A stretch of DNA of 63,910 nucleotides, the filler included, from Folioceros fuciformis (lineage: Eukaryota): the NCBI GenBank assembly GCA_049999805.1. It is 7 parts of 7 records of this genome, joined end to end, with 100 filler letters (N's around TTAATTAATTAA, not from the genome) between each part and the next. Parts side by side here need not be neighbours in the genome. Positions count along the whole stretch, not along the records: positions 1 to 28,982 come from JBNGIO010001106.1; 6 more parts are not named here. One strand, 5' to 3'. The notes under the pieces are model-generated. The model did no database searches. It was not told the DNA's origin and worked only from the letters and a program-made list of their open reading frames with translations. Numbering within the stretch: position 1 is the stretch's first letter; every line of letters begins with the position of its first letter. The translations under genes were made by a program, and so were the position numbers. Of the stretch, positions 14,301-58,248 are shown one piece after another.

Positions 14301-14361
14301 CCGGCCACAGCCCCCGGGCCAGCACAGAGCGTGCCCCTCCACCTCCTTTCCTAAATTTCAT
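11354..14361 (-). CDS. DUF4228/PADRE-domain protein, two exons, about 900 aa with long low-complexity regions
   Basis: Exon 1 14361-13458 (donor G|GTATGT) and exon 2 13173-11354 (acceptor ttgctgcag|AC) join in phase 1. DUF4228-like motifs: LKVLTADGQLLRF..MTAGDLL..HPHHLV, IVPLDAELESGRVYYLVPLP and TWKLELPSIVE (cf. W-x-P-x-L-x-x-I-x-E). There is an in-frame stop just upstream of the ATG at 14361. Confidence 0.8.
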
Positions 14362-17300
14362 CCTCTCCCCTTACGGCGCTGAAGCCGGAGCCCCCTGCCC
14401 CTGCCCTTGCCACTTTCACCTCGAGCTCCTCACCATCTCCCAGGCTACGGCCGTCCTGTCCTGTCCTATCCTAACCTCCGCCTCCTCCTCCTCCTCCACC
14501 CCCTCCAATCCTTCCCTTCCCCACTCTTCCACATGCACTGCTCCCTGCTGTGGAGCCTCCCCTTGCTCCTCTTGCCTTCACTAGCTGTGCGCGAGTCTTT
14601 CACAATGCGTGGCCCTCCCTCCCTTGCCCGGGTCTGCTTGTCTTGCTGGGCAAGGGCAGTAGCACAATGACTAGCCCCCTCTACGCACGTCTCGTGCAGA
14701 TCTCCTCCTGCATCAGCGCAGAAGGCCTGGTCCCACAGAGGGGGAGGGAGAGGAGGCGGCGGATCCCGGAGCCTCCCTCGTCGCCGGTGCTGCCCTCCTT
14801 GTCCGTCATGGATCACGCACAAGGTCAAAAACTAACAAGAAGGAAGCAGCCGGGAAGACGCTGAGCAGAGGGTGGGTGGCGGCGGGAACAAAGAGGCGGG
14901 CCAGCACTGAAAGGAGAGGGACTCAGGAGAGGAGGAGCAGCATCGGGAACCGGGCCGGTAGAGGCAAGGAAAGGAAGAGCTTGCCAGGGCAGCAGCGAGG
15001 GAGGGAAGAAAGCAAGGCAAGGATGGAAGGCGGGCAGGCGGGCAGTCTATGGAAAAGCGAACGGAATGGACTGGAATGGAATGGATGGGAAGGAAGTTGA
15101 ACGTGTGGAGAGACGTTTGGTGGAGTCGAGGTGGAGGGTCTGAGTGAGTGGGCGAGGAGGAGGAAGTTGGGGACGCGAATCCAAAGGCGTGCCTCCTCCA
15201 CAAGTACATTCATTCATACATCCACGGCGCATTGACTTTGGCAACCTGGGAGGCAGGCAGCGGCCACTGTGGAGCTTCCACAGGGGTCCACACACTGGGA
15301 CTCGGGCAGCCCAGCCTCGCAGCCGGATTGTCATCAATTTAACTTGAACATAAACACCTGCAAAATTAGATGATTAAAAACATAGGAGGAAAATCGACGG
15401 AGAGGGCCGGGCCCGGCGGTGACCCCCTGGGGTCTGGATATTATAATAAGCGGCAGCGGCCCGACCCGGCCGAAGGGAATGGCGGGAGGTGATTTATGAG
15501 CATTGAATGCGGGCAGCGGTGGGCCCCGCGTAGCCCATCCGCGCCAGCCCTAATCATGCTTCATGCGCCGGGCCGCCCTAATCATACCCTAAATTTGGAC
15601 CCCCGCATGCACCACGCTGAGCGCAATCATGGCTTGCGGGCTGCCGTCACGCCTCATTTTGTCAACCTTTTTATTTACCCGCGCTTTTGGTTTCTTTCCA
15701 TTGGGGCGGGACCCTCGGCCTCCGTTTCACATGCGGCGGATCCGGGCCATCATCACCGCGCTCTGTCAAGAGCAGTCTGCTCTCGTCCCCCGCGCAGTCT
15801 CACTCGCACTTGGGCTCGGGCTCGAGGAGCCCTAACCCTAATGGCTTTTGGGAGCAAAGCTTGCGAAAACCTCGACTTTTGTGGCTCTTGTCTTGAGTCT
15901 GAGAGGGTGCTTCAAAAGTAATCTCATCAGCTAGCTTGCTTGCTTGCCTGCCTGCTTGCCTGCCTGCCTGCCTGCCTGCCTGCGCTGATTCCGGCACTTG
16001 TCTCTTTCCTGACACCATCCACCACCTGCACGCAAGCACGCCGGCACTTGCTGCAGCGCCATCCGATAGCACATGGCCTTGGCCCCTTCCCCTCTGTTTG
16101 CGAAATTAGATCTGCCTTGATCTCGCTGCTCCTGCAGCTCCCGTTGTTGCTGTTGTACTGTTGCCTTGTCCGGCTCCGCTTGTGGCCCAGACACCGCCAG
16201 CGCCATTGTGTGTCAGACTATCCCTTGTCATGAACTCTCCTCTACCCAACTGGGGCTTCTTCTCCGGCCGCGTCGAGATGTGCTAAAAGGCCAGCCAGCC
16301 TAGCGTCACCGGTGCTTGCCTGGCTCCTCCTCTCTGCCGCCTCCTTCTTCTTCCTGTCTTGTCCTCTTTCTTCTAGACATACCCTTCTTCGTCACCGGCA
16401 GCAGCTCGCTACTGGGCCCCCCCCCCGCGTCCAGATGCTTCCATCCACACGCTCTTCCAAAATGCCTCAACCACCAGCTTCGTCACCAATGACCACTCTC
16501 CCATTACGTCTCCATCCGATCTGGACTCCGGATCCGGGGCTGCTGCGCTTGCTTGCTTTTGCTGCTTTGCTCCCGCCCAGCAGCAATGTTCTCGCTGTTA
16601 CAGTGCTGGACTTTTCTCCCTTTACCTCTACTTTCATCATAAACATTTCAACTCATTCTTGCCCCAGGTTGAGAGATTCACCAAGGCTTCGACTTCGCTT
16701 CAACTGTTTTTATGCCATTTGCGATGCCCACCTGCCCCTTACTTGCCCCCCTTTTCGGAGAAGCAGCCCCTCTCATTGACAAACCAGTACACGACACTCC
16801 TCATGCTTCTCTTTGTCTTGTCTTTTTCTCCCTGAAGAAAGTGAGAACAAAAGCGGCAGCTGGCGGCCAGTCAGCTAATAAGCAGCAGTTGCCGCTTGTC
16901 ACTCACGTACATCCATCGCCTTGGCAACTTGGCGGTGCAGTTGGCCTTGTGGGAAAGGGAAGATTCCTGGTCAGTCCCAGTCCCAGTCCCAGTCCCAGTC
17001 CCAGGCCAGTCCAGTCCACTCATGCGCACGCTACAGAGTCTGCTGGCAAGTTGTTAAATATTACTGTGGAGATCCACCACGAACACAAACCGTTACTCTT
17101 CCACGTCCCGTGCTGTGCCTATTCTCGGCCCTTTTGCCCCGCCCGTTGGACATTACGGACCACCGCCATGATGTACACACATACCTTACCGTGTGTGCTT
17201 CATCCGAAAATCCTGAAACCCCTCTGTCACCAGGATGGCAGTCACCTTACCCTAACGCGCGCTGTCTCTTCGTACCATCTCCGTCTTTTCGTCTCCCTTG

Positions 17301-19513: not shown

Positions 19514-20266
19514 ACAGATGCTTGGTTTGCTAATTCGACTCATGACAAAGCTCAAAGCACAATTCACTGTGGAGGAGAGGAAATCTTAGATAGTCACATG
19601 CCTAGAATGTTCTTTCCTCTTTGTATGAAGGGAGAAAGGGTAGGATTTGGTACTTTCCAAACTTTGAATACAAGAGCGAGGCTCTTGAAGAAGACCCATA
19701 ATGTTCTTCCATCTTGAACACGAGCCAACTTGAAGAAGAACTTGAAGAAGGATGGCATTGCATGGAGGTAGCCTGGAAAATGGTTTAGTTGATGAGAAAG
19801 CGTTTTGCATTCTGACTCCAGATCTATCCAAGTTTGAAGCACGATTGTACGCAATGGCATGAACTCAAGGTGTAAATGGCCCATACATTTGTGTGCATAT
19901 TATCAATATTGACATGGGTATGAAAATGGAGCATTAATGCTGAGCCAAAGACCTTGACGTCAAGAACCTTAGGGCGCGGTGCTGTAACGTCGACTCTTCT
20001 TGGAGACGTGTGACTGACCTGTTCACCAAGAGGATAAAGCGAAAGGAGTAACGGGCGGAAAACACACAATTTGGGACTATGCCGAAAACCGGAGAAACGC
20101 AAAACCGTGAGGGGAGTGTTACCCGAGGTAAGGGTAGCCGGATGCCGGTAACTACTACCAAGTTTGAAAAATTAGTTAAGAGCGGAGCCAGTTGTGATGC
20201 TCACGAGCTCGCTCACGGGGTGAAGTCACCATGTCAAGAACGGTGGTTCCGTCCAGACGTCATCCA

Positions 20267-21718
20267 ATGGGGAAGGTTGCCAACAGAGCAGCAGCCGCAG
20301 CAGGGAGCGGGCAAACTCGCCGCTGCCGCGTTCTGCTGCTCCCGCCGCTCGTTCTCTTGCTGCTCGTGACTGGCATCGTCTCCTTCCGCAACGTCGGAAT
20401 TGGAATTCAGGGATATCGCGGTGATGCAATCGCGGGTGCAGGTGCAGGTGCAGGCGCGGGTGCAGGAGGGAACGAGGAGCAGGATCGCAACAATCCCTTG
20501 AACCTGCACACCGCCGTCTCCATCTTCATCTACGACCTTCCGCCTTCATTCAACAGGAATTGGCTGCGCGACGACCGCTGCAGAACGCATCTCTTCGCCG
20601 CGGAAGTGGCGCTGCACGACATACTGGAGGCCAGCCCCGTGCGCACCTTGGATCCTCGCCACGCCGACTTCTTCTTCCTCCCGGTCTATGTTTCATGCAA
20701 TTTCAGCACCACATCTGGATTCCCGTCTCTAGGCCGCGCTGCGCAGCAGCTACGCGCGGCTGTCAGCTTTGTGTCGCACCGGTATCCTTACTGGAAGCGC
20801 GGAGGAGGCAGGGACCACATCTTTGTTGCGACGCACGACTTCGGCGCCTGCTTCCATGCATCCGAGGCTGCGGCTGTGGAGTCCGGGATTCCGCAATTCT
20901 TGTCCAACTCCATTATTCTGCAGACCTTCGGACATCAAGGGCGGCATCCCTGCCAGGTTCCCTCCCGCTTCATTCAGATCCCGCCTTACGTGCACCTTGA
21001 CCCCCGGACACAGCAGCTGCCGCAGCCGAGCCCGACCAGGCATATCTGGGCCTTTTTCAGAGGGAAGATGGAGCTGCATCCTCGCAACACAACCGCGGGC
21101 GGAATCTACAGCAGGCAGTTCCTCTTTTCTAACCAATTAATCACCTTCTTGCGTGTAGGAGTGGAGATGTTGAAGCCGCAGCATCTCCTATCCTGCAGCT
21201 CACATGCTTCCAGGACTGTTTAAAGTTTGCTGCAAAGTTCTCACAAACGCGTTTGCTCTGCGCAAATCGGCTGCAGGGGAGTGCGCACTGCCTTGTGGCA
21301 GAAATTCGGCCATGATAGACGCTTCTTCATCAAACGCAAGAGGTCGGATGACTACCAATTGGAGATGCTCCGATCCATATTTTGCCTATGCCCGCTGGGA
21401 TGGGCCCCTTGGAGCCCTCGCATAGTGGAGGCTGTGATATTCGGTTGCGTGCCGGTCATCATCGCTGATGGTATTGCCTTACCTTTCTCACAGGTTATCG
21501 ACTGGCCGCGCATCTCCTTAAGGATACCAGAGACGGATGTCCACCATCTGGACAAGTTATTGGAGACTATCACCTCCACCAACTTGTCCGCAATTCAGCG
21601 CGAGTTATGGAAGCCCTCGAACAGGCGGGCTCTCTTGTACAACACTCCCTCCATCATAGGCGATGCCTCATGGCAAATCCTTGACCACCTCTCCACGCTC
21701 AAACCGTCCCAATCGTGA
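20267..21718 (+). CDS. GT47 (exostosin) glycosyltransferase, IRX7/FRA8/F8H-like
   Basis: Type II membrane anchor (VLLLPPLVLLLLVTGIV), then IFIYDLP..DDRCRTHLFAAEVALH..DFFFLPVYVSCNFST..GFP, DHIFVATHDFGACFH, FFRGKMELHP, FCLCPLGWAPWSPRIVEAVIFGCVPVIIAD. Exons 20267-21114 and 21277-21718. An alternative ATG at 20231 is in the same frame. Confidence 0.92.
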
Positions 21719-22290
21719 CCGATTGCATGCTTGTACATCCTTCTTGCAGACATGTACTTCACACGTCCCCGGGGCCCTTGGACTCGTCTAAATACCTGCT
21801 TCATAGGCAGCCCATAATAGTAGTGCACATTGATCATCGCACAGCATGTAGATGGACGGGATGGGGAGAGAGGTAGACTTTGCAAGGATTTGATACCTCT
21901 ATATAGATATTTGTAAAGTACACACTTATATTTTTTTAGTAAGAATTCATTTTTAATATAGTATTTTTAAAACTTATTTAAAATTAGTTTTTAATGTATT
22001 ATTGCTTATAATAGAGTTATTTTTTTATTTCTCATGACTTAACCCTGTTGCGTGAATTCAAAAATATTCTTGGCTCTCTATGTTCCAATGGAAGAAATCT
22101 TTTAAGAACCTTATCCAAGTTTTTTTTGTACTATGATAAATTCGATAGATGGGTTTCCGTTTTGTTAGAATATAGAGTATAAAGATTCCATTCTTGAGTT
22201 GCATGAAATTTGCATGACATGCACACTTAGTTCTTTGATTAAGTAGCATTTATGTAGGACATATGTGTGACTTCTTTACCCTTGCTATGG

Positions 22291-22448
22291 CCTTGTTTGT
22301 GAGGAGATTGTTTTTGTGCTTCAAAAGCAAGGGGGTTCAGGTCCTTGTTAGTGAGGAGATTGTTGTTGTGCTTCAAAAGGAAGGGGGTTCCGGTCCTTGT
22401 TTGTGAGGAGATTGTTGTTGTGCTTCGAAAGAAGAGGGTTCCGGTCCT
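22291..22448. repeat. 52-bp tandem repeat x3
   Basis: ccttgtttgtgaggagattg..gtgcttc..ggggttccggt starts at 22291, 22343 and 22395. Confidence 0.93.
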
Positions 22449-22995
22449 AAGAACATACGTGATCATTTCAATGAGTGCTTCATCTCCACATTCGGTTTGA
22501 GCATGTTAGGAATACAAACTGCTTTCTTTCAAAGACGCCTAGATCTCCAAAGCTGTGGCAACTAGAAGGGTGATCGCTAGGCACATTTAGTAGTCAGATC
22601 TTTGCACTCGGGTCTGCTCAGATCTTTGCTCTCGGATCTGCACTTGCTTCCCCTCTAGGACGAGTAAAAGAGGACGAGAGTCTTGAAAATTTAGAGGACA
22701 TTAAGGAAGGACATACCGAGTGATGAAGTGCCACGTTCTGGAACAAATGGGGGGCTAGAGTCAGGCAGTGACCAGTGCAATGTTCTGTAAGAACGGGGGC
22801 AGGAGTCAGCCAGCGAAGGTGTGCGAGCTGCACATAGTATGCACCGAGATACGTGCTTGCCATGTATGTTCAATAGATACCGACTTGCTCGTTGTCACGC
22901 ATGCGAGGCCTCGTGACGCGGCAGCCGATGCGCTCGGGAACGTGACATAGCGCTGTTCAAACTGGAAACCTCCTAGCCTTCACAACTACTCCGCA

Positions 22996-25900
22996 ATGGC
23001 CCCCTCGATCCTCATTCCTGCATCAACCTCTCGGTGCTGCGTCGTCCATGCGCTCCTTTCCTTAGGACTGCTGAGGACGGCTGCCTTCTCCACCACCAGT
23101 CGTGCGAGTGCTCACAGCTTGAAGGTTCATACTAAGTTGTCTCAACTTTTTCGTAGGAGGCAGATCATGGATTCAACTGCTGCCTTTGATTATACCAGTT
23201 CGCACGATCATATTCATGCATCAAGGGAACGCGGTGGCATGGTGTGCAGAGTTCGTCCATTCTGAAATCAACGCAAGCACGACTTCCGAGTGCTAGAGCC
23301 TGCTTCTCGAAGTCCTATCGGGTGAGGTGAAGGAACTTGGAAAACTTGCGCACTTACCCGTGAAAGCTGCTGCAGCAGAAGCTTGATGGCCGTGTCGATT
23401 ATCGTGTGATGCATACTTCAGTACCCTGTTTCATTTGATTCAGAACTGTGTGCCATGGCTACAGACACATCCTACAACAAGGTGGAGCGGAAACGATAAG
23501 CCATGGGCCACAAGCACTCTAAGCACGGCAAGGTACTGACGCCGGCCAATCGGTGCATTGAGAAATCCTGAAATGCTGTGCGACTGCGTTTGGACATTCG
23601 AGATTGTGATGAACTCCCTCCAACAGTTGCTGCTTTGCTCTTGGACGCGTTGCGGCTTGCCGAAAATTGCACACTGGCAGCAGTGGACACTGGAGGGAAG
23701 TAGAACCAGTGGGAGGCAACTTGTACGGTGAAACCGTGGCTCACCATGTCCATGTATGACCAACCTAGATACTCCGGACCTTCCCCCGCCTTGTCGCAAG
23801 ACTTGTGACAGTGGGAACCACATTTATAGCTCACGCTGTCCACGAAATCAGATTTTCGTTATGCTTAGCTTGGCATGTGGCGAGCAGGGTTTGTTCTCGG
23901 CTTTCAGCATCATTTCTTCTTATTCAGAACAGCCGTGCATGATGTTGAACAGGCGTCCAAGGAAGGTGAAGGAGAAAAGGCGCCACGGCCTGAACTTCCC
24001 GGGCTGCGAAGGACGGTGTGGGAACAACAAGACAGGCAAGTTGAGTATCCCAAGCTGACCAGGGATGTGAGCGCAGATGTGGTGGTCGTTGGAGCTGGCA
24101 TTGCCGGCTTGAGCACTGCCTATCATCTCGCTAAAGCTGGCAAATCTGTGATAGTTCTCGAGGCTCACTGTCGAGGTAAGAATCTCTGAAGTGCCGGGAT
24201 TCCGCCACCACCATGCTCCAAAGCGTGTTATGTTTCAGGTCTAACCAACATGAGTTTGTAGGTGCTGGTATGACTGGGAGGACAACAGCGCACATAATGC
24301 CTTGGTATGACGATTATTACCAGAACGTGGAAAAGGACTTCGGACTAGCGAAGGCCAAGATCGTCGGAGAAAGCTATCGTTCAGCCATCGACTGGGTTGA
24401 GCGCATAGTCATCGATGAACACATCGATTGCGATTTCACTCGGCTCAACGGGTACCTTTTCCCTCACGAAGACACAAAACAGGCCCACGATCTCCTGCAA
24501 CAGGTGAGAAGTTGTTAGCTTCATTGCAGTTTCGTTGTTTGTAATCTCCCCTTTCCCTCTTCGCGCTTTTCATGAAGACTGTGAACTACGAAATGTTCAG
24601 GAGTATGAAGCGTCTCGACGGGTTGGGTTTGATGTACGGATGGTGGACCTTGGGAAAGATCCAGTGTCCGGCCACATTGGAACTGCAATTGAGTTTCCTA
24701 GGGCTGCCGATTTTCATCCTCTCAAGTGAGCTCTCATTGTGATGTTACTAATGATCCGCTGCTGGCCATGGATAGTTGTGCACGCCCATCTGATTCTTAT
24801 GGGATTACGATTGACTTGTCCCCAGATACCTGGACGGGCTAGCAAGGGCCCTGACGAGGAGAGGAGGAAAGCTGTATGAGATGACCAGGGTCGTCAAAAC
24901 CCAAGGCAATCAAGTGACTACGGAAGATGATATCACAGTGACTGCAGGAGCTGTTGTCCTGGCTACCTGCTCTCCAATCAATCACAATATAGCTATCCAT
25001 GCGCGCCAAGTTCCCAAGCGCACCTATGTTGTGGGCCTGCGAATTCCCAGGGGCTCTGTGAAGTAAGCTCCTTCTCTTCCCGACCTTCAGGCTACAGGCG
25101 CATATGGATTCGAGTCCTTTCCGGAACCGATGCTGGCAGATGTCTGTCGTAGCTTTCTAGCCTGACTCGTGACACGGTTCACATTGGGGAGAACCATTGA
25201 CAGTTTTGAAACTCTCTTCGATGCAGGAGGGCGCAGTATTGGGACACCGCACAACCTTACCACTATGTGAGATTGGAACCGAAAGGCGATTATGACATCC
25301 TGGTGGTTGGGGGAGAGGATACCAGCATAGGAATAAAGCCCACTGATTATCACGATCCATACAAGAACCTCGAGCTTTGGGCTAAGAAGCGCTGGACCTT
25401 AGCAGAGGATGTTGAGTACTCTTGGACAGGGGAGGTAAGCTGAGTGGAGGAAGCTACTGCTTGTGCTTTCGAGGTGCTCGCGTTTCTGTGATGAACGCTG
25501 ACATGTCTAAGCTTTGCTGTGATGTAAGTGGTTCGATCCCGCGGATTACCTCCACCTGATTGGGCCAGATCCTCTGGAATTTGGAGCTCATGATCAATAC
25601 ATTGCAACAGGTGTTTTGCGTGTTTTTCGGCGTGTGTTGGAAACTGATTCTCTCCTCCGTAAATGATTCTTGAAACAAGTCTGTGCATAACTTGTGGACA
25701 GGTGACAGTGGTCAAGGTATGACGGGCGGTACCATCGCTGGTGTCCTGCTCTCGGACCTTATACTTGGAAGGGAAAACCCATGGGCTGAAGTTTACAGTC
25801 CGCGAAGGGCGCTCCCGCTGTCGAAGGACACAGTGAAGAGCGTTGGGGAGGAAGTGATGCACACCATCCAGGTAAGTCATCCAGTACAGCCCCCCCACCA

Positions 25901-26347
25901 TCTGCGGCTTCAACTTTTGTCGCTGTCGCGAGTGGATCAAACAAGGGGTGCCCTTTTTTGTATGCAGGGTTACAAGGACAGGGTGCTACCAATAACGGGT
26001 GCCGACTCTGTTGACATTGAAGACCTTCTGCCCAGTAGCGGAGCCGTCATCCAGAAAGGATTTCACAAGATTGCTGTATACAAGGACGAGAACGGACAAG
26101 TCCATAAATACTCTGGTGAGGAATGTGGATTTATTGCCATGCTTGTCACTCCTTCCTGTGCACGCATTCCACAATTCGCCTTCCTTATTCCTCCTTTGCA
26201 GCGGTGTGCCCCCACATGAAGTGCAGCGTCAAGTGGAATCCCGTGGATGGAAGTTTCGATTGTCCCTGCCACGGTTCGGTGTTCGACTGCTATGGACGCG
26301 TTGTGAGCGCACCTGCCAAGCAAGACCTAAGCCCCATCGTGTCCTGA
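22996..26347 (+). CDS. FAD-dependent (DAO-family) oxidoreductase with C-terminal Rieske [2Fe-2S] domain, YhfW/PuuB-like architecture, probable organelle transit peptide
   Basis: Core exons 23928-24175, 24262-24503, 24601-24725, 24826-25062, 25227-25434, 25529-25610, 25702-25871, 25968-26115, 26202-26347 splice in frame. Motifs: DVVVVGAGIAGLSTAYHLA (GxGxxG), GAGMTGRTTAHI, YWDT..PYHYVR, YIATGDSGQGMTGGT, and Rieske ligands CPH...CPCHGS. Tentative 5' exons 22996-23124, 23250-23321 and 23444-23481 give an S/R/A-rich leader (lower confidence). Confidence 0.88.
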
Positions 26348-26378
26348 AGGCCCTGCAGCTCGTGTAAATAATCCAAGT

Positions 26379-26660
26379 ATGGACAAGGCCGAGGATGAGA
26401 GGCGACAAGAGCGCTGCGACGAGAAAATTCGAGCTTTGCAGAACTGTCACCGGAAGCATCGGAGCGAGATAGAGCGTGAGTTATTGTGTAAGCATTTGAA
26501 CTACGGGGCTGCTTTGTGCCTGGTGTGGACCATATGCCCTGGACAGGTGGAGGCGGTAGAGAGTTTGTGCGAGAGCGTCGGGACCGCGTCCAAGCGTCGG
26601 CAGTGTGAGAGTGCGAAGGCAGGACTGGAGGCTTGTCTTTCTACTCACGTGGAACAATAG
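26379..26660 (+). CDS. 93-aa intronless twin CX9C (CHCH-like) protein, probable mitochondrial intermembrane-space type
   Basis: Four helical cysteine pairs: CDEKIRALQNC (CX9C), CKHLNYGAALC (CX9C), CPGQVEAVESLC (CX10C), CESAKAGLEAC (CX9C). Clean ATG..TAG. Confidence 0.8.
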   Translation: MDKAEDERRQERCDEKIRALQNCHRKHRSEIERELLCKHLNYGAALCLVWTICPGQVEAVESLCESVGTASKRRQCESAKAGLEACLSTHVEQ

Positions 26661-27031
26661 ATTTTCTGTTTGCGTCTTCTCACACAGGCTACTTGTACGG
26701 AAAAGCGTCGTGTCCTTTTTTTTGTCCCGAACAGCGCGATGATCGAGAATCCTCGATCAGCTTTTCGGAATAAGCCTTCTGACATGCATCTATTTTGTAG
26801 CAATTGCTAGCGAGGTTGTTAAGTGCAATGGAGTGCTCTAAGAGAACCTGTTCCACAGTTTGTTTGCGTTTCATGCAAGAACCCCAAACCACTACTAGTG
26901 TACATCACTATTTTTGCCGATGAGAAGATGAATCCTTTCCTCTGCGATATGATCATGAACAAGCAGCAGCCTCTGAATGTGACACCCTTCTCACTCCCCA
27001 CACTGCCCTCCAAAAATTAAGATGCTGACAA

Positions 27032-28613
27032 CTATGAACCAGCTCGTCCGTACGTGCCTCCTGGTTGGAGCTCCTCCAGAATGTGGATATCCCTTGCGCC
27101 ACCGACTTCACGCAGCCCACACCATCCTTTCCGGGTCAAAAACTCGCGAAAATCATCCTCGGTGTACAGAATCTGTTGTTCCGCGTTACCAGTCGGGTGA
27201 CCAGCTTCGTTGTAGGTACACACCTTTACAGTCACACCTGCAAAGCATATGCACCACAACGATCAGCGAAACACCCGCGTCCCATCTCCCTATACAACCT
27301 TTGCCTACGCAAAAGGCCTGCCAAACATGCGGACAGGGAGGATCGTACAGATACCTTGGTCAAGATTTAGGTAGTAGGTAGATAACGGCATGTCGCGACT
27401 CAAAGTTTGCACGATGCCATCTTCGTCCTCAAGCCAGAACAGTCGCTTCGTGCGTAGACCGAACGCAGATTTGATGGAATCTTTGATGAATTCAGAGGGC
27501 CCATCGATCCTTATTCTCCTTGTCATATCACCACACTTCACGACGATGATTTTCCCCTCTAAGGACATGCGTTGCTCCCTGCCTGCACAGCCATCAATGT
27601 GCAGTGCAGAATCTGTTAGACGCAGAACCACGATTGTAAGCTGACTCGGACCAGTCACAGTGCTAAAAGGATGGAAGCGTCCACAAACGAAACCACCTTT
27701 CGAAAGGAAGGCTTTGGATGGAGTGTGACTACTTACCATCACCGTTGGCACCTGTATCCCTCCAGTTCCAAGCTGAATTGATCCCATTGGGCGCCACCAT
27801 GAGATGCGAAGCCAGCTCTGCTGAGGAGAGAGCATTGGGGTGCCCTTCATGATCTAGTCTGCGTTCAAAACTCAGAGCACCTCTAATTGGTCCTGCTGAC
27901 AACAGAAAAGTACATCTTCAATGAGCCAAGGAAAGACCAGAAATCACCAAAACACCCCTCAGAAACGACGTTTATCACCTGAGTTTCCAAAATGATTGAG
28001 CCCTGGGGGTTCAGTGTTTTCCCATCGTGGTTGACCTGCAACCACTTGGGGGGTTGCAGAACAAATGAGCACAAATCAGAAGCCGCGAAAGTAAGCGCAC
28101 CTCAAGTCTCGGACAAAACGAAGCTGTCCTGTGATATGCAAGATGCACAGGGCATGAAATACCTTTGGGAGACAGGAGAGGACTAGCTTCGAGTTTGGCA
28201 GGACTCCTGTACGGCGTCGTTTTGATAGACCGCTCTCCAAGGATTTCTTCCAGATCCTTGTAGCACGCAAACTTAGCAGAGCCACCCCTCTCCTGCTGCT
28301 GCCTGGCCTTCTTATACTCCTTGAGTAGATTCCTCCACTTATCCGTGCACATAGTACCCGACCTCTCATAACCACGGTCCTTCATCTTCATGGCGATCTG
28401 CTCCCAAAGATGCTTGTTCGATTTGGAAGTATTGAAAACATTGTCCATCTCCTTCCTGAAGGCAATCAGCGCCTTCATCTCTTCCTGTGCCCATGTCTCT
28501 GCCCTTTTCTTTGGAGTCTTGATCTCAGGATCGTCCGTGTCTGTGAGCATCAGTTGCTGAGCAGAACCTAGCTGATCAGCTGACAAAGTGCTGGAGGGAA
28601 CACCAACTTCCAT
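27032..28613 (-). CDS. Trihelix transcription factor, GT-1/GT-4 clade
   Basis: Exons 28613-28163, 28035-27979, 27892-27737, 27582-27355, 27237-27032 (all phase 1, GT-AG). [35 protein letters not shown] trihelix domain, [16 protein letters not shown], and the GT-1 C-terminal domain [33 protein letters not shown]. Confidence 0.95.
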
Positions 28614-28982
28614 GGTCAGAGGCAATTTACCCCTCTCCTCTTCAATCGCCTCCTACTACTGACCTACACATGCAAACTCCCTAAAAGACGACTTTCATAA
28701 AGCTCGCAAGTGAGGTCTAAATCCAAAGAAACCCAGCCCAACAAGAATTCGGGGGGGAGCAACAGACGACCACACGCAGCGTCTACGTGACTTCCAGGAG
28801 TGGGATGGGAATGCTGGTACCAACCCCTGACCTAATTAACAACCAAGAAAACCTAAGCTATGCTCATCCTCCGAATTCCCCCTCTCCTGTCCAGCCCCCG
28901 GGCCAGCATGTTGCACATCCAGATGCAGCCCTGCCTTCACTTGGGCTCAGGAAAGACACATACGGCTCCGGATTAGCAAGGC

Positions 28983-29082: not shown

Positions 29083-30680
29083 GGGAGAAGGTATTCCCAC
29101 AGAGGATTTGCCCCCTATTACTCAACTTCTGCCAAATGATGCCAGAATCGAGCAAACTCCGTCAAGAATTGAGGCGGATCTAAGGGGTGTGGAAGATTGC
29201 AGGATGAGAAGCAATTCTTGGCTGATTTGACCTGAAATCCACCAAATTCAAGAGAACCATGTGAATTTATTGAGCAGGATAAGGTAGAGCAGACAAATCC
29301 ATGAGGTTTGTTGCAACCCCTGCCTATTCCAAGTGGGCCTTCGAAGAGCATATCAATGGATTTTGTTATGCCATTGCCACCCAGTAATGGATACACATAT
29401 ATCATGACAATTTCTGATAGGTTCAGCAAGCAAGCACACTTTATCCCCACGAAGAAGCAAGTGAAGGCTTTAGAAGTTGCTCAATTGTTTAAGAAGCATA
29501 TCTATGTGTTACATGGATTGCCTATGCAAATTGTGAGTGATAGAGATCCCAGATTCACAATGGAATTTTGGCAACAGCTTATGAAGAGCTTGGGAGTGCA
29601 ACTACGTTTAAGCACAGCATATCATCCTGATATAAATAGATCTACGGAAAGGGTAAACAGAATCCAAGAGGAATACTTACGACACTATGTACAGATGGAC
29701 CAGAGAAACTGGAGTGATCATATTGAGGATGCAGAGTTTTGTTATAACAATATTGTACATAGCTCCACAGGCTATGCACCTTTTCAAATGATAGGTAACG
29801 AAGCAATGGACGCAGTTTCCATGTTGAATGCTGGCGTGTTTGAGACAGCAGCAAGAGAACCACGTGAATTTATTGAGCAGTTGAGGGCCAGGCATGAAAT
29901 TGCTAAGAGGATTTTGGTCAAAGCTCAAGACAGGCAAAGAAATTTGCTAATAGGCACAATATGTTTGTAAATTCCATCCAAATAAAACAGCTTCTTCAAC
30001 TTCTCATAAGTTGTGTCAATTCCCCAATAACCAGCACTTGGTACATCGTGATATTCTGCAAGCAATTTTCTTCTCAACTCTTGAGAATCAGGAATCACAA
30101 TCATGTTTTGCTTGAACATTAACAAACCATTTCTAAGCTTAAACTTAGACCCCGGTTGCTCTATTTCACTGATCCAATCTTGCACTAATGGATCGTGCAG
30201 ATAAGCCTCCTTAATTTGCATATGAGTGTCTCTTAGCTCAATCGCCATCTGTGTTGCAATTAGCTTAGGATTCTTCAGCTTAAAAACAAATATCAAACTC
30301 AACTTCTACTTGCGACTGAGAGCATATGCCACGAGATTCTCCTTCCCTGGCTTATACTTAATCTCCACATCATACATCGCTAGGAAATCTTGCCATGTAG
30401 CTTGTCTTGCATTTAGTCGCAGCTGATTAGGAAAGAAGCTTGTACTTACATTAGCTGTGTACAGCACAAAAGATCTTCCAAGAAGATAGTGTCTCCAAAT
30501 CTTGAGACAATTGATGACGGCTGTCATCTCCTTCTCATATGTGGGGTATTTTCTCTCATGTTCATGCAACTTTTCTTGATTCGTAAGCCACTGGCCTACC
30601 TTCTTACATAAGCACTCCTCCAACAGCTGTATCTGATGCATCAGTATGCACGTTGTAGGGTTATTAAAGCCCAATGTGCT
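29083..30680. mobile_element. Decayed, internally rearranged Ty3/gypsy pol (integrase core on +, RNase H and integrase Zn-binding region on -)
   Basis: + 29308-29970: LQPLPIP..SISMDFV..ISDRFSKQAHFIP..IVSDRDPRF..STAYHP (gypsy integrase). - 30674-29960: ERKYPTYEKEMTAV..WRHYLLG..YKPGKENLVAYALSR (gypsy RNase H) and YHDVPSAGYWGIDTTY. Stops and frameshifts present. Confidence 0.92.
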
Positions 30681-36184: not shown

Positions 36185-39100
36185 GACCCACAATACAAAA
36201 ACAAGGTTATAGCCAAAGGCACTCCCCTTCACGATCTCTGCCAACTTAACATTACATCTAAGCTAGGCAAGAAATCCATAGCTGCACATGTCAACGTCAC
36301 CCAAGCATCAAAACAAAAAGACCAGGCCATGCTGTGGCATTGCAGACTCAGGCACATCAACTTCGAGAAATTAAAAAGCTGGTGTCTAGTAATACCCTCT
36401 ACAGGGAGAAGTTTATGCTGCAATTTACTGACAAGCAATTTTGTGAAGCCTATGTGTTTGGGAAACACCATAGGCTTCCGTACAGTGACAAAAATCCCAC
36501 TAGAGCCTCCAAGTTGCTGGAACTGGTGCATACAGATTTCTGCGGACCTATGTCTACAGTATCCATGGGAGGAGCACTATACATCTTATCTTTCCTGGAT
36601 GACTGGAGTCGGTATGTTATGGTTTACTTGATCAAGCACAAGAGCGAGGCTCTTGGCTGCTTCCAAGACTTTGTTACTTTTGCCCAACGGCAGACAGGCG
36701 AGCTTATAAAAATCCTGCGGAGTGATAATGGAGGTGAGTTCTGCTCTAACGCGTTCAAGGATTATTGCAAGGTGCATGGGATAGGCAGGCAACTAACCGT
36801 GCCTTACACGTCCTCACAAAATCCTCTCACCGAACTCAACAATAAGCACCTGCAAGAACAAGCTAAGTCAATGCTCAAGCTAGCTAGCTAGCTAGCTACC
36901 ATGAACCTATTGGGCGGAGGCTGTGGCTACAACTGCTTACGTCAAAAACCGTCTCCCAATAGAAGCATTTGATGGAGCAACACCTTACCAGAGGTGGACA
37001 GGTCACAGGCCCCGGATAAATCACCTGCGTATCTTTGGGTCTCTAGCCTATGCCCACCTCTCTGAGGAACAACGCAAAGCTAAGTTAGACTACAATGCAT
37101 TCAAGTATGTGTTTATAGGTTATACAAAGGGCATCAAGGGCTACAAGCTGTCTGACCCTACGTCTCAAACCATAACCCATGCTCGTAGCATTTTCTTTAA
37201 TGAGCAGTTGCTGTTGAACCCATCTCCTAGTCGCACATTGGTAGGAGAAGTTTCTTCCAGTCAGCCCTTTGTCGAGATCAGCAGCACTGACTCCCATACG
37301 TCTGCACCAACCTCATAATCTGGTACAACACATCCTAGTCACATAAATCTTGTCAGTGACAAAGATGAAGAGCCTTCTGATTTCCCTGACGATGACAGTG
37401 ATGTAGAACCTGACTTGCATACACAAGAATCTGGAAATAATGCAAATGATGTGGTCAGCCACGACAACATTTTTGATGATGAACAGCAGGAGGATCAGCA
37501 GGATGCTTACTCAGAAGAGGAGGACCCTGTTGCTGAACCTGCTGTACAACCAGACACTGTTCCAGTCAGGAGAGGGACAGACTTGGGCACTAGACGTCAC
37601 ACCACCTTGCCTTCAGAATGGCTGCAGCCTCCGTTAACCTATCAATCATTCTTAGTCCAGGATGACAGCACACCACTCAACACTGGTGATCCGCAGTCCT
37701 ATCAAGAAGCCCTAAATTCTAAGGATGGACAAAAATGGATGGAGGCTATTCAGTTAGAATACCAGTCCTTGGTGGACAAGAAAACTTGGGTGCTGGAGGA
37801 TCTTCCACCTGAGAGAAAGGCAATTACATGTAAATGGGTCTTCAAGACTAAGCTTGATGCCAACGGAGCCATTGCTAGATATAAAGCTCGGCTGGTAGCA
37901 AGAGGCTACAGCCAAGTTGCATGTCTTGATTACATTGAAAGTTTTTTGCCAATTGTACGTGCATCATCCATTCGAGCTCTCCTGGCAATAGCAGCCCAAC
38001 ATGATTACTGCCTACAACACATGGACATGAAGACTGCGTTTCTGAATGGCAATTTAGAAGAAACAATTTATATGAGACAGCCTGAGGGCTTTGTTGATAA
38101 GCAAAACCCTCACAAGGTATGTAGGCTAATCAAAACCATTTACGGACTTAAGCAGTCGCCTAGAGAGTGGTTTAAGAGGATTGATGCATACTTTAAAAGC
38201 AGCGGCTTCATTTAGAGTGAAGTTGAAAACAACGTCTATAAACTGCATGACAATAAGGGTGTTGCATATCTTGCACTATACATTGATGATGCTATAATTA
38301 TAGCTAGCTGCCCTGAACTAATGAATCGAGTGAAAGCTATCTTGACCTCGGAATTCTCTATGACTGACTTAGGACAGCTAACATTCTTCTTAGGAATACA
38401 AATTCATCAAAATCTCTCTAGGCACACCAAATTTATTCACCAGGGCCAGTTCGTACAGCAGGTCATTGCCAGGTTTAGACTTCAGAATGCAAAGCCTGCA
38501 CCTACACCCATGGCAGCCGGGGAAAAACTGTCATTAGATTATTGTCCCAAAACAGAGGAAGAACAACAACAGATGGAGCTGATTTCATACAGACCTATTG
38601 TTGGTGTTCTCATATATTTCCGCAATTGGACTAGACCTGAGCTCTCATACTCAGTGGGAGTCACTTCCCAGTTTCTATCCAACTATGGCAGGTCACACTG
38701 GAGTGCAATGCAAAGAATTATGCGGTACCTGGGGAGCACACCAAATCTGGGGCTGCTGTACAGTAAACGACCAAGCAACCTTCTGCTCACCTGTTTTTGC
38801 GATGCAGATTGGGCGGCCAACGCAGACAGCCGCAACTCCATCTGAGCTCACTGCCTTATGTTAGGAAAAGACCAATTCCAGTCTACAGTAATAGCATGGC
38901 ACAGTAAAAAGCAGCAAGTGGTGGCTCTCTCCTCGACGAAAGCAGAGTACATCTCTACTACCACTGCTGCCCAAGATATAATTCATGCAAGAGAGCTGCT
39001 GAACTCGCTGGGAGAAAGACAAGAGGGACCAACTTTGCTTCTCAACGATAATCAGTCAGCCATTGCATTAGCACAAAATCCTGTAATGCATGCTAGAACC

Positions 39101-40059: not shown

Positions 40060-41999
40060 TCAGGGTTCTCGATCCTGTCGATCTTCACTTTGATCTGGCA
40101 TGTAGAATAGGATTAGCGGATACTGCAATTGCCGACTGGTTGTCACATTGTAATGTCGTAGGACCAGTCTGGGGTACTTTAATGTCTCTGAGGAATTGAC
40201 ATATCCAGCTGATCTCGCGGGCTGCCAAGGATAAAGCACTATATTATGCGTTTGTAGATGAGAGGCTGATAGTGCTAAGCTTTTTGCTTTGCCAACGTAT
40301 GGCAGATCCACAAAGAAGATTGCAGTAGGCAGCTATGGACTTCCGTCCATCCACATCGCCGGCCCACTCTACATCCGTGTAGCAGGTAAGTGTAAAGTTT
40401 GGTGCTTTAGTATACTTGAGACATAGATGCCTAGTTCCCTTGAAAAAGCGTAGGATTCTCTTTACAGCGATCCAGTGTCACTTGCCAAGGTTTGATAAAT
40501 AACGTGATACAAGACCTGTTGCTAGAGAAATATTCGGACGTGTCCATCCTGCAAGGTATAGAAGACTCTCGACAACCTCCCTATAAGGTATTTGAGACAT
40601 TTCATATTTGTCCGTCTCTGTTGTTGGGCAGTCTGCTGTTGAGAGCTTTTCTCCAGCAGCAATAGGATTGATATCTTGTAGCTGAAACTTGTTTGGAATT
40701 TGTCGAATGAAGTGCTCTTGATGCAAGGTCACTGAATCATTATCTGGATTCCAAGAGCAAAACGTAGAGGACCAACATCAGTCATAACCCACTCTTCAAC
40801 TAAGTCCTTTTTAACTTGTGTGAGAATATCTTGGCTGCTAGAGAATATGAAATTATCGTCTACATACAGCGCAATGATACATAATCCGTTTGCTGTACAC
40901 AGGACATACACGCTGCAATCTGCTATGAGAGGTTCAAAACCCAAAGCTCGAAGCTTCTTGTCAGCTCGTCCGTTCCATATGTGAGCTGATTATTTCAGCC
41001 CATATAATGACTTCAGCAGTTCACACACAAGGTCTAGATCAAACACATATGCTTATGGTCGTGTCATTAAGATGGTCTCGTCCAGGGGACCGTTTAAAAA
41101 GGCTGTTTTAACGTCCATCTAGTGGACTAGTAAATTGTGTTGAATGGCATAGCAGAGGAGTATCCTCATAGAGGTGGGCTTCACCACGGGACTAAAACTC
41201 TCATTATAATCAAGCCCTTGTACTTGTGTGTATCCTCTAGCGACCAAACGTGCCTTGTAGCGGGCAACAGAACCATCCGAGTTTAGCTTCAACTTAAAAA
41301 CCCACTTGGAGGTAATTGCCTTACGCCCTGGAGGTAATCTATCCAATTTCCATATTTGGTTGTCCATGAGTGATTTATATTCGCTATCGATTGCCTTTTG
41401 CCAATCTGATTTTTGTGGTGAGGTCAGAGCCTCCTTGTAGGTCATGGGAGTATCAGGTGGTTCCATAACAGTATAGGCCATGTGTATTGGTATATTAGGT
41501 TCTGCTGGATCCATCTCCAACTCATCAGCTTGGATAGTGGCCTTATCAAGCTGATTATTATCATGACCAAGTGGATCAGGGGCTGGAGGCAAAACTACAG
41601 CTGTCTTTGGCTCAAAATCACGTGATCACTATCTAAATTTGAATAGGGTAAACTGTCTTCATGTATAGGTGTATGGCCATTTATGGTGATTGTAGGCAAA
41701 GGGTCATAACTGGATACTAACTTCTCGTAGGACTTCAGGATACAGGATTCATTAAAGCTTACACTACGTGCTATAGATAGCCCCCTCCCTAGTGGAGGGA
41801 TTATAAAGCTTGTATCCTTTCACCGTATCTGAATAGCCAACGAATATATGCTTTGTGGCTTTGTTGTCCATCTTTCTTCACTTGTCTGCTGGTATGTAGG
41901 CATAGGCTACTGCTCCAAAGATTTTGATACAAAGTTTGTGAGCAATCTATCTTTCAAAGGGTGTGTTGTCAAAAAAAGGCTTTAGAGGCAACCTGTTGG
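40060..41999 (-). mobile_element. Second decayed Ty1/copia element (integrase C-terminus, RT), convergent with the first
   Basis: KIFGAVAYAYIP..FVGYSDTVKGYKL, KWVFKLK..RYKARLVARGYTQVQGLDY, IALYVDD, PYREVVESLLYLAGWTRP; many stops and frameshifts. Confidence 0.92.
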
Positions 42000-56897: not shown

Positions 56898-56997
56898 NNN
56901 NNNNNNNNNNNNNNNNNNNNNNNNNNNNNNNNNNNNNNNNNTTAATTAATTAANNNNNNNNNNNNNNNNNNNNNNNNNNNNNNNNNNNNNNNNNNNN
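56898..56997. other. Artificial contig linker
   Basis: N44-TTAATTAATTAA-N44. Confidence 0.98.
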
Positions 56998-57791: not shown

Positions 57792-58248
57792 AGCTTAGCT
57801 CCTGGGGTGAAATCCGAGCTCCTGCACCCGCGTCGAGCGTAGTGTCTATACACGGCGCCGGCGCACGCGACTATTGCAGCTGCGGAGTCCCGAGGCACCA
57901 ATGACCTGATACACCGCTGCTTAATGGAGTGTGTCCTATGTACAGCTTCTTCTTCCACTCCAGAACGTTCGACTATTCGGACCCGTCAATCGTCTGCCAA
58001 GCCGTTTGAAAACTGCACAGGTGGGGTTCTACGAGGGGGGTTCTTAAACCCTATACCCTTCGGCGCCGCAGCGTTTTCCATTTTATTTTTGAGAGGCACA
58101 GGATCCGGTAGATTCTAGATTCAACAATTTTCACTTCGTTTTTACATCACACGTAAATAATAGTAAGATTCAACAGTGCGTGAATTATGATGTTAACAGC
58201 TTTTCCCACGGATTCGTGGTGCCATGATACTCTACTGTTAATACATAG

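What the first reader, a model, noticed from the sequence alone, without database searches (positions are those of the whole stretch)
26202..26660. Candidate nuclear dicistronic locus: FAD-Rieske oxidoreductase stop lies only 31 nt before a twin-CX9C gene
Seen: the oxidoreductase ends at TGA 26345-26347 and a clean 93-aa ORF with four CX9C/CX10C pairs starts on the same strand at 26379. The 31 nt between them cannot hold a 3' UTR, poly(A) site, promoter and 5' UTR. Known: nuclear polycistronic mRNAs are rare in land plants (CDC26-TTM3 is one case) and more common in green algae; twin CX9C proteins are typically Mia40-imported mitochondrial intermembrane-space factors. Inference: either one mRNA encodes both proteins (reinitiation on a downstream ORF), or the small gene's promoter lies inside the Rieske-coding exon/intron. 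An AATAAT in the spacer could allow alternative polyadenylation that switches between mono- and dicistronic forms. An Fe-S flavoprotein coupled to a disulfide-relay substrate could be an undescribed organellar redox module.
Basis: partly seen in the sequence, partly recalled or inferred. Interest (0 to 1): 0.78.

Follow-up and report, generated by a model that had tools for sequence, protein, structure and literature searches.

The report
Two plant genes 31 bases apart
In a plant nuclear genome, a bacterial-type flavin/iron-sulfur enzyme gene ends 31 bases before a small, conserved mitochondrial assembly-factor gene; the two are transcribed without a gap, but it is not shown that one messenger RNA makes both proteins.

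Summary
The oxidoreductase stop is TGA 26345-26347, the spacer is 31 nt, and a 93-aa ORF with CX9C, CX9C, CX10C and CX9C pairs runs 26379-26660.

Both genes are real. A spliced RNA-type contig lacks all 11 GT..AG introns of the upstream gene and runs uninterrupted over 26201-27235. The script-spliced 536-aa protein aligns end to end with bacterial DAO+Rieske proteins, so the TGA is its native end. The small ORF has 46 homologues, including the plant "COX assembly mitochondrial protein / Cmc1-like" family, and all eight Cys are kept.

In a relative, the closest homologues of both genes come from Logan contigs of identical length, 11,245 nt. They are probably one contig, which would mean linkage is conserved.

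A single dicistronic mRNA is not shown, because the same contig also fuses a convergent gene. The architecture is the reverse of known leaky-scanning bicistrons: a long first ORF, a strong first start and 24 intervening AUGs with no depletion.

Most likely these are overlapping transcription units, and the small gene has its own start site inside the 3' end of the upstream gene. No evidence links the two proteins functionally. Interest is moderate.

The parts
22996..23532 (+). 5' exons of the oxidoreductase gene: exon 1 up to 23124 (the RNA contig begins near 23010), exon 2 at 23250-23321, exon 3 at 23465-23532. Exon 3 holds the ATG at 23503 that opens the 536-aa ORF. An upstream ATG at 22996 opens a presequence-like ORF.
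   Evidence: GT..AG joints in the contig, boundaries checked, reading frames.
23503..26347 (+). Coding region of a 536-aa FAD (DAO-type) plus Rieske [2Fe-2S] oxidoreductase in 10 coding exons: 23503-23532, 23953-24175, 24262-24503, 24601-24725, 24826-25062, 25227-25434, 25529-25610, 25702-25871, 25968-26115 and 26202-26347.
   Evidence: Spliced contig. All 11 introns are GT..AG. ORF of 536 aa. 36-45% identity end to end with the full-length (474-545 aa) bacterial-type DAO+Rieske proteins of the set. Pfam Rieske E 5e-10 on the last exon.
26202..26347 (+). Last exon: the C-terminal Rieske boxes CPHMKC and CPCHGS, and the stop TGA 26345-26347.
26348..26378 (+). 31-nt spacer. It holds a second in-frame stop for the upstream frame (TAA 26369-71), an AATAAT (26367-72) and an acceptor-like CTGCAG (26353-58).
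   Evidence: Transcribed continuously with both sides. No Rfam family and no unusual fold.
26379..26660 (+). Intronless 93-aa gene for a Cmc1-like protein with two CHCH hairpins (four Cys pairs). Start context is A at -3 and G at +4.
   Evidence: AlphaFold2 model pLDDT 90.8 with helices carrying the Cys pairs.
26661..27031 (.). 371-nt zone between the stops of the small gene (+) and the convergent gene (-). It holds the 3' UTRs of both, which overlap or abut.
   Evidence: The contig is continuous 26201-27235, then has CT..AC introns. Minus-strand stop at 27032-27034.
27032..28652 (-). Convergent neighbour: a trihelix (Myb/SANT-like) gene. Its last exons are 27032-27237, 27355-27582 and 27737-27892.
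   Evidence: (PF13837, E 3.8e-22).

Best explanation
This is a real, expressed, extremely tight tandem pair in a plant nuclear genome whose transcription units overlap.

The upstream gene makes a 536-aa bacterial-type FAD/Rieske oxidoreductase. The downstream gene is intronless and makes a conserved Cmc1-like protein with two CHCH hairpins, probably a factor of the mitochondrial intermembrane space.

Most likely (inferred, not shown), the oxidoreductase mRNA runs through the small ORF to a poly(A) site beyond 26660. That mRNA would be dicistronic in structure only. The small protein would be translated mainly from a shorter, separately capped transcript that starts inside the last intron, last exon or spacer of the upstream gene (about 26116-26360). 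The AUG-free stretch 26295-26378 would be its leader.

The juxtaposition may have arisen when an intronless copy of the small gene came to lie just behind the oxidoreductase stop.
For: Shown:
- The coordinates and frames hold.
- One 4,658-nt contig of run X1 is 100% identical to the window. It lacks all 11 plus-strand GT..AG introns and is continuous over 26201-27235. RNA molecules therefore cross the stop/start boundary.
- The stop at 26345 is the native C-terminus.
- The small ORF keeps every invariant residue of its family. Of 15 aligned sequences, C13, C23, C37, C47, C53, C64, G68, K72, C76 and A79 are invariant. It has 46 homologues, the best at E 3e-29.
- Its homologues are ordinary stand-alone genes of about 100 aa in Marchantia, Carex, Ananas and others.

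Against translation from a dicistron, and so for a separate start site:
- ORF1's start is in a strong context (G at -3, G at +4).
- 24 ATG triplets lie between the two starts, against 25.8 expected, a ratio of 0.93.
- Green-algal bicistrons work by leaky scanning and have short first ORFs (median 357 and 291 nt) with AUG depletion (passages).
- In 271 Arabidopsis read-through loci the second ORF is rarely translated (abstract).
- No structured or Rfam element lies at the junction: fold z = +0.82, and the one Rfam match is sub-threshold and elsewhere.
- The last 84 nt before the small ATG are free of ATG.
Against: - No transcript 5' end or 3' end was observed. Only contigs were available, and they cannot show starts, ends or single molecules.
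- No promoter element was identified inside the upstream gene.
- Both genes seem to be linked in a relative too. P0001 and P0109 both come from a Logan contig of 11,245 nt. That fits selection for co-expression as well as plain synteny.
- The contig is unbroken from about 23010 onwards, so no abundant alternative junction is visible. A dicistronic RNA would also give this picture.
- An 84-nt ATG-free stretch is expected by chance about one time in four (my estimate, (63/64)^84).
Confidence: 0.5

Rival explanations
1. True functional dicistron. A single mRNA from the promoter near 23000 is the only source of the small protein. Ribosomes that terminate at TGA 26345 resume scanning and reinitiate 31 nt downstream, or they enter internally.
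For: - Transcription is continuous across both ORFs.
- The spacer is too short for independent signals.
- The second start has a strong context.
- A short inter-ORF distance is typical of algal bicistrons (median 40 nt in A. protothecoides).
- Small mitochondrial proteins are frequent in algal polycistrons.
- Linkage is probably kept in a relative.
Against: - Reinitiation after a 536-codon ORF is inefficient by established knowledge of eukaryotic translation, and cites the negative correlation with uORF length.
- Leaky scanning is ruled out by the strong first start and 24 non-depleted AUGs.
- No IRES-like structure or Rfam element was found.
- Second ORFs of Arabidopsis read-through RNAs are rarely translated.
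- The 156 nt upstream of the relative's start codon show no similarity to any frame of the window's Rieske exon; 127, 149 and 213 of 300 shuffles score as well. This hints that the 31-nt spacing is not conserved.
Confidence: 0.2
2. Shared promoter with alternative splicing. A 5' exon donor (23124, 23321 or 23532) is sometimes joined to the acceptor-like CTGCAG ending at 26358. This gives a monocistronic mRNA for the small protein whose leader is the oxidoreductase's 5' exons.
For: - CAG at 26356-58 matches the acceptor form of this gene's own introns; 8 of 11 end in CAG.
- It lies 20 nt before the small ATG.
- The 5' region already looks alternatively used, through the exon 3 frame effect.
Against: - No such joint appears among the 14 joints of the contig, although contigs drop rare variants.
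- The pyrimidine tract before the CAG is weak.
- AG dinucleotides are common, so this is a pattern match only.
Confidence: 0.08
3. The small ORF is a silent relic, an untranslated copy sitting in the oxidoreductase 3' UTR. The functional gene would be elsewhere in the genome.
For: - It is intronless. In contrast, 15 of the 46 homologues lose similarity part-way and continue with unrelated residues, as ORFs called across introns would.
- A 9-nt direct repeat flanks spacer plus ORF.
Against: - The frame is intact and all family-invariant residues are kept.
- The start context is good.
- The closest homologue, at 61% identity (58% in the multiple alignment), is likewise an uninterrupted ORF, probably linked to the same upstream gene. 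That implies long-term purifying selection.
- The 9-nt repeat is at chance level: about 1 pair is expected in 751 nt and 2 were seen (the expectation is my estimate).
Confidence: 0.05

Closest known systems
Green-algal nuclear bicistronic loci (Gallaher et al. 2021, PMC7896298, passages read; Duenas et al. 2025, PMC11892635, passages read)
   Same: Two independent ORFs on one strand in different frames, a very short inter-ORF distance, continuous transcription, and one partner a small mitochondrial-type protein.
   Different: In the algae ORF1 is short (median 291-357 nt), has a weak start context and is AUG-depleted, and ORF2 is the long one. Here ORF1 is 1,611 nt with a strong start and 24 AUGs, and ORF2 is the short one. 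The organism is a plant with land-plant-type genes: PADRE, trihelix and GT47. Single-molecule evidence is missing here.
Arabidopsis polycistronic read-through transcripts (Kurihara et al. 2022, PMC9768141, abstract read), and CDC26-TTM3
   Same: Tandem nuclear genes found on one RNA. The downstream ORF lies in what is effectively the 3' UTR of the upstream mRNA.
   Different: In those loci each gene normally has its own termination and promoter, and read-through is a minor, NMD-sensitive product. Here 31 nt leave no room for that, so overlap is obligatory. From recall, in CDC26-TTM3 the small ORF comes first.
Cmc1/CMC1 and other twin-CX9C (CHCH) proteins. Arabidopsis CMC1 is AT5G16060 and CMC2 is AT4G21192 according to Table 1 of PMC5877523. 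CHCHD5 is PDB 2lql.
   Same: CX9C pairs on antiparallel helices. Weak Pfam Cmc1 match (E 6e-4). Homologues are named 'COX assembly mitochondrial protein' or 'Cmc1-like'. The two-hairpin layout resembles CHCHD5 (weak hit at E 0.64; atlas row 5).
   Different: There are four Cys pairs rather than two, and the third is CX10C. The protein scores below Pfam's Cmc1 cut-off (20.2 against 22 bits). Function and location are untested. Which Arabidopsis gene is the orthologue was not determined.
Bacterial DAO-family FAD oxidoreductases fused to a C-terminal bc/b6f-type Rieske domain. I recall Bacillus subtilis YhfW as a member, but this was not checked.
   Same: Same domain order and length. 36-45% identity over nearly the whole length with the full-length (474-545 aa) homologues. 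GAGIAG dinucleotide-binding motif and CPH../CPCHGS boxes.
   Different: It is encoded in a plant nucleus with 11 spliceosomal introns and an optional presequence-like N-terminus. No curated NCBIfam equivalog and no solved full-length structure exist for the family, so the substrate is unknown.

Membership tests
Nuclear polycistronic (bicistronic) locus | Two separate, conserved protein-coding ORFs on the same strand with a short inter-ORF gap | tested here: met
   31-nt gap, different frames, and both products have homologues.
Nuclear polycistronic (bicistronic) locus | Single full-length mRNA molecules that carry both ORFs | tested here: inconclusive
   one spliced contig spans both. It also spans the convergent gene, so it is an assembly of overlapping transcripts. 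No long reads or raw reads were available.
Nuclear polycistronic (bicistronic) locus | No independent monocistronic transcript or internal start site for ORF2 | not testable with these tools
   This needs CAGE, 5' RACE or long reads. Contigs cannot show starts.
Nuclear polycistronic (bicistronic) locus | Both proteins translated from the shared RNA | not testable with these tools
   No Ribo-seq or proteomics were accessible.
Leaky-scanning bicistron (green-algal type) | Short ORF1 with a weak start context, and AUG depletion upstream of ORF2 | tested here: not met
   ORF1 is 1,611 nt and its start is GCCATGG. There are 24 ATG triplets against 25.8 expected, one of them in a strong context.
Twin-CX9C / CHCH proteins (Cmc1-like) | Paired CX9C motifs on helix-turn-helix hairpins | tested here: met
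   C13/23, C37/47, C53/64 (X10) and C76/86. The model has helices 3-26, 30-52, 54-64 and 70-92 at pLDDT 90.8. The eight Cys are invariant or nearly so in 15 sequences.
Twin-CX9C / CHCH proteins (Cmc1-like) | Reaches the Pfam Cmc1 (PF08583) gathering score | tested here: not met
   20.2 bits against a cut-off of 22. 13 of 22 family members match Cmc1 at E<=0.01, best 5.7e-7. The window's protein itself falls below the cut-off, so membership of Pfam Cmc1 is not claimed; the protein is called Cmc1-like on the strength of its named homologues.
Twin-CX9C / CHCH proteins (Cmc1-like) | Location in the mitochondrial intermembrane space with oxidative import, and a role in COX assembly | not testable with these tools
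   Inferred only from family names and reviews.
Twin-CX9C / CHCH proteins (Cmc1-like) | Structural match to a solved CHCH protein | tested here: inconclusive
   Foldseek found no match at E<=1e-3 among 105 rows. VIA-align's best Z was 6.2, to unrelated helical proteins. The profile hit to CHCHD5 2lql had E 0.64.
DAO-Rieske fusion oxidoreductase | N-terminal FAD dinucleotide-binding motif plus a DAO-type domain | tested here: met
   VVVVGAGIAG motif in the script translation. Homologues carry PF01266. Alignment is end to end.
DAO-Rieske fusion oxidoreductase | C-terminal Rieske [2Fe-2S] ligand boxes CxH ... CxxH | tested here: met
   CPHMKC and CPCHGS in the last exon. Pfam Rieske E 5e-10.

The most novel reading that the evidence does not exclude
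A land-plant nuclear mRNA that is an obligate dicistron of an unprecedented 'long ORF first' type. A full-length 536-codon enzyme ORF would be followed, 31 nt later, by a conserved Cmc1-like ORF. Terminating ribosomes would reinitiate on it, or it would be translated by an unknown internal-entry mechanism. The arrangement would be kept in at least one related species. It may have been created when an intronless copy of the assembly-factor gene landed behind the stop codon of a bacterial-type gene.
Probability: 0.15. Interest if true: 0.75.

Novelty: new member of a known kind. Interest (0 to 1): 0.4.

Why it matters
If the small protein is made from the long mRNA, this would be a natural plant case of efficient translation after a long upstream ORF. 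That is not explained by the leaky-scanning rule established for green algae, and it could be useful for stacking transgenes.

If, as seems more likely, the small gene starts inside its neighbour's last exon or intron, the locus is a clean example of obligatory transcription-unit overlap in a plant genome that is otherwise not compact; retrotransposons and kilobase-scale intergenic gaps lie in the same window. It would also warn annotators that a conserved 93-aa gene can hide in an apparent 3' UTR.

The upstream gene is of separate interest: a bacterial-type FAD/Rieske fusion, rich in introns and expressed in a plant, with unknown substrate.

Tried and rejected
- **Sequencing runs.** No RNA holder is listed. 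The one holder, X1, is labelled 'RNA?' (a guess). I treat it as RNA-derived only because its contig lacks all introns.
- **Runs X2 and X3.** Nothing was laid from either.
- **Window's genome.** No whole genome is held, so copy number and a second copy of the small gene could not be checked.
- **Adjacency in other genomes.** Two metagenome scans, with alignment A2 and with P0006, gave 0 confirmed loci out of 107 and 248 pattern matches. The tool that returns the DNA around a given protein is closed, so the relative's 11,245-nt contig could not be read and its spacer length is unknown.
- **P0001's N-terminal extension.** Comparing its 52 residues with all three frames upstream of the small ATG gave no signal; 127, 149 and 213 of 300 shuffles scored as well.
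- **Word-based homologue search with the small protein.** No candidates.
- **Structure searches.** Nothing informative.
- **Rfam on 22800-27400.** One sub-threshold snoRNA-like match elsewhere, at E 0.38.
- **RNA fold of 26290-26440.** Not more stable than shuffles.
- **Retroposition footprint.** A 9-nt direct repeat (26337-45 and 26708-16) flanks spacer plus ORF, but at chance frequency.
- **Read-through or fusion.** Rejected on frames and stops.
- **Literature.**
  - Searches for YhfW/Rieske/HGT in plants and for Marchantia locus identifiers (0 papers) gave nothing relevant.
  - I found no report of this gene pair in the six answered searches.
  - That is no proof it is unpublished.
- **Earlier findings of this scan.** Nothing was returned.
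- **Complex prediction.** Not run, because I do not claim that the two proteins bind.

Full report
**1. The observation**

- The upstream reading frame ends at TGA 26345-26347.
- An ATG at 26379-26381 opens a 93-aa ORF that ends at TAG 26658-26660.
- The gap between them is 31 nt (26348-26378).
- The ORF has Cys pairs C13/C23, C37/C47 and C76/C86 (each CX9C) and C53/C64 (CX10C).
- An AATAAT lies at 26367-26372.

The two ORFs are in different frames. The upstream frame meets a second stop (TAA 26369-26371). The small ORF's frame is closed 48 nt upstream by TAA 26328-26330. Stop-codon read-through or a fusion protein is therefore excluded.

**2. The upstream gene**

Run X1 holds all sampled words of 26202-26800. 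Its kind is only guessed as RNA. When laid on 23000-28000 it gave one contig of 4,658 nt, identical to the window, with 14 joints.
- Eleven joints are GT..AG introns on the plus strand. I checked the boundaries: 23125-23249, 23322-23464, 23533-23952, 24176-24261, 24504-24600, 24726-24825, 25063-25226, 25435-25528, 25611-25701, 25872-25967 and 26116-26201.
- Three joints are CT..AC introns of a convergent minus-strand gene.
- Removal of every intron is what processed RNA gives, so I treat the contig as RNA-derived.

Joining the exons in a script gives a 536-aa ORF from ATG 23503 to TGA 26345.
- It has a GAGIAG dinucleotide-binding motif.
- Its last exon carries the Rieske boxes CPHMKC and CPCHGS (Pfam Rieske, E 5e-10).
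- It aligns at 36-45% identity, nearly end to end, with the full-length (474-545 aa) DAO+Rieske proteins of the set, which are named bacterial where a name is given. An example is residues 41-532 against 21-516 of the 518-aa Hymenobacter protein P0071.
- The TGA is therefore the native C-terminus.

The family has no curated NCBIfam equivalog and no solved full-length structure, so its substrate is unknown.

**3. The small gene**

HMMER against 1.84 billion representatives found 46 homologues at E<=1e-3 and 26 at E<=1e-10.
- Named members are stand-alone plant proteins of about 100 aa. They include Marchantia polymorpha Mp1g13400/MARPO_0019s0110 and proteins of Carex, Ananas, Castilleja, Ipomoea and Cuscuta. 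Sources call them 'COX assembly mitochondrial protein' or 'cytochrome c oxidase biogenesis Cmc1-like protein'.
- In a 15-sequence alignment seven Cys are invariant and the eighth nearly so, and the window's protein keeps every invariant position.
- Pfam gives the window's protein only a sub-threshold Cmc1 match (20.2 against 22 bits). 13 of 22 family members match Cmc1 at E<=0.01.
- The ESM Atlas's nearest cluster is a streptophyte family of 99-aa proteins, 35% of them with Cmc1.
- An AlphaFold2 model (pLDDT 90.8) places the Cys pairs on helices 3-26, 30-52, 54-64 and 70-92. This amounts to two helix-turn-helix hairpins, a layout like CHCHD5 (weak profile hit to 2lql, E 0.64).
- Structure searches were otherwise uninformative.

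The ORF is thus a genuine member of a plant Cmc1-like, double-CHCH family. Location in the intermembrane space and a role in COX assembly are inferred from family names and reviews only. MIA40 is reported to be dispensable in Arabidopsis (abstract of PMC10669224, seen in the listing).

**4. What the RNA evidence does and does not show**

The contig is continuous from 26201 to 27235, across the last Rieske exon, the spacer, the small ORF and its 3' flank, with no intron. With a 31-nt spacer this means some RNA molecules cross the stop/start boundary, so the two transcription units overlap.

The same contig runs on into the spliced exons of the convergent trihelix gene, whose stop is at 27032-27034. 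It is therefore an assembly of overlapping transcripts and cannot prove a single dicistronic molecule. Contigs also cannot show transcript starts, ends or relative levels.

**5. Mechanism**

Known translated nuclear bicistrons of green algae use leaky scanning.
- ORF1 is short (median 357 nt in C. reinhardtii and 291 nt in A. protothecoides).
- ORF1 has a weak start context.
- AUGs are depleted before ORF2.
- Adding a single AUG severely cuts ORF2 output.

This locus is the reverse.
- ORF1 is 1,611 nt and starts in GCCATGG.
- 24 ATG triplets precede ORF2 against 25.8 expected (ratio 0.93), and one of them is in a strong context.
- Leaky scanning is therefore not possible.
- Reinitiation after 536 codons is inefficient by general knowledge of eukaryotic translation.
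- The junction has no Rfam element and folds no better than shuffles.
- In Arabidopsis, 271 read-through loci exist, but second ORFs are rarely translated and the RNAs are NMD targets (abstract).

The explanation I favour (confidence about 0.5; this part is inferred) has three parts.
- The oxidoreductase mRNA probably carries the small ORF in its 3' UTR.
- The small protein is made from a shorter transcript starting inside the last intron, last exon or spacer.
- The 84 nt before its ATG are free of AUG, and the ATG itself has A at -3 and G at +4.

The rivals are:
- a true reinitiating dicistron (about 0.2);
- a shared promoter with splicing of a 5' exon to the acceptor-like CTGCAG at 26353-58 (about 0.08; no such joint is in the contig);
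- a silent relic (about 0.05; contradicted by the conservation).

**6. Conservation of the arrangement**

- The closest homologue of the small protein is P0001, at 61% identity and E 3e-29. It comes from a Logan contig of 11,245 nt.
- Searching with exon 24264-24503 of the oxidoreductase among short proteins gave 2 hits. The better one, P0109 (78% identity, E 6e-37), is also from a Logan contig of 11,245 nt. It ends at the same exon/intron border as in the window.
Linkage within 11 kb would then be kept. I could not read that contig, so orientation and spacing are unknown.
- P0001's gene call extends 52 codons upstream of the aligned start. This stretch resembles no frame of the window's Rieske exon. 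That is a weak hint that the relative's spacer is longer than 31 nt.
- Two metagenome scans found no further loci.

**7. Origin (hypothesis)**

The small gene is intronless here and in P0001. In contrast, 15 of the 46 homologues lose similarity part-way and continue with unrelated residues, as expected when ORFs are called across introns. Examples are P0012, P0023, P0028-P0031 and P0034-P0036.

An intronless copy placed behind the oxidoreductase stop would explain the tight spacing. The only footprint seen is a 9-nt direct repeat at 26337-45 and 26708-16, which is at chance level.

**8. The 'redox module' idea**

Nothing links the two proteins functionally.
- The small-protein family is stand-alone in plants.
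- None of the 53 oxidoreductase hits bore a plant name. That search is word-limited, so this is weak evidence.

One relevant point did emerge in passing. An ATG at 22996, 14 nt upstream of the contig's 5' end, opens exons 1 and 2. These encode a 67-aa stretch with 15 Ser, 5 Thr, 10 Ala, 6 Arg, 3 Lys and no acidic residue. Skipping the 68-nt exon 3 would join it in frame to the enzyme. An organelle-targeted isoform is therefore possible, but which organelle is unknown and no isoform data were available.

**9. Context and verdict**

The window is plant nuclear DNA of ordinary density. It holds a PADRE-domain ORF, a GT47 exostosin gene, a trihelix gene, a DEAD-box helicase, a nucleoplasmin-like domain and several Ty1/copia fragments. 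More than 1 kb separates the GT47 gene from the oxidoreductase 5' end. The 31-nt spacing is therefore exceptional locally.

- The 'candidate dicistronic locus' reading is partly supported as a structural statement and unproven as a translational one.
- It is a new example of a known kind: tightly overlapping or read-through tandem genes in plants.
- A minority reading, long-ORF-first reinitiation, would be notable if experiments bear it out.

Noticed in passing
window 22996-23532: An ATG at 22996 (context GCAATGG) lies just upstream of the RNA contig's 5' end. With exons 1 and 2 it encodes a 67-aa stretch rich in Ser/Thr/Ala/Arg and free of acidic residues, which looks like a transit peptide. 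The 68-nt exon 3 breaks the frame and supplies the ATG at 23503. Skipping exon 3 would fuse the presequence in frame to the oxidoreductase. Targeted and untargeted isoforms are possible.
   Followed up: partly
window 23503-26347; P0110: The oxidoreductase is of bacterial type, 36-45% identical to the full-length homologues, whose names, where given, are Bacteroidota, Ignavibacteria or Gammaproteobacteria. None of the 53 hits had a plant name, yet the gene has 11 spliceosomal introns. P0110 (ENA contig of 111,460 nt) looks like an exon fragment starting at the same boundary in another organism. This points either to ancient vertical inheritance with losses or to an old gene transfer.
   Followed up: partly
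window 26337-26345 and 26708-26716: An exact 9-nt direct repeat, TCGTGTCCT, abuts the oxidoreductase stop and recurs 47 nt after the small ORF. It brackets the spacer plus the small gene. About one such pair is expected by chance in this 751-nt stretch, so it is probably coincidence.
   Followed up: partly
window 27032-28652 (-): The convergent trihelix (Myb_DNA-bind_4) gene has its stop only 371 nt from the small gene's stop. The RNA contig fuses the two, so their 3' UTRs overlap or abut.
   Followed up: partly
window 23048-23065: A five-codon upstream ORF with a weak context sits in the oxidoreductase leader.
   Followed up: no
window about 22290-22445: About two and a half tandem copies of a roughly 60-nt unit lie 0.6 kb upstream of the oxidoreductase 5' end. 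They follow a very AT-rich block at about 21900-22250.
   Followed up: no
window 29305-29967, 36262-38842, 41122-41625, 53634-54143: Fragments of Ty1/copia-type retroelements (rve, RVT_2) and a zf-RVT ORF, interrupted by stops.
   Followed up: no
window 13444-14370 (-), 20198-21715 (+), 44836-46152 (+), 56949-57794 (-): Other plant genes in the window: a PADRE-domain ORF, a GT47 exostosin gene (two adjacent ORFs), a DEAD-box helicase and a protein with a nucleoplasmin-like domain.
   Followed up: no
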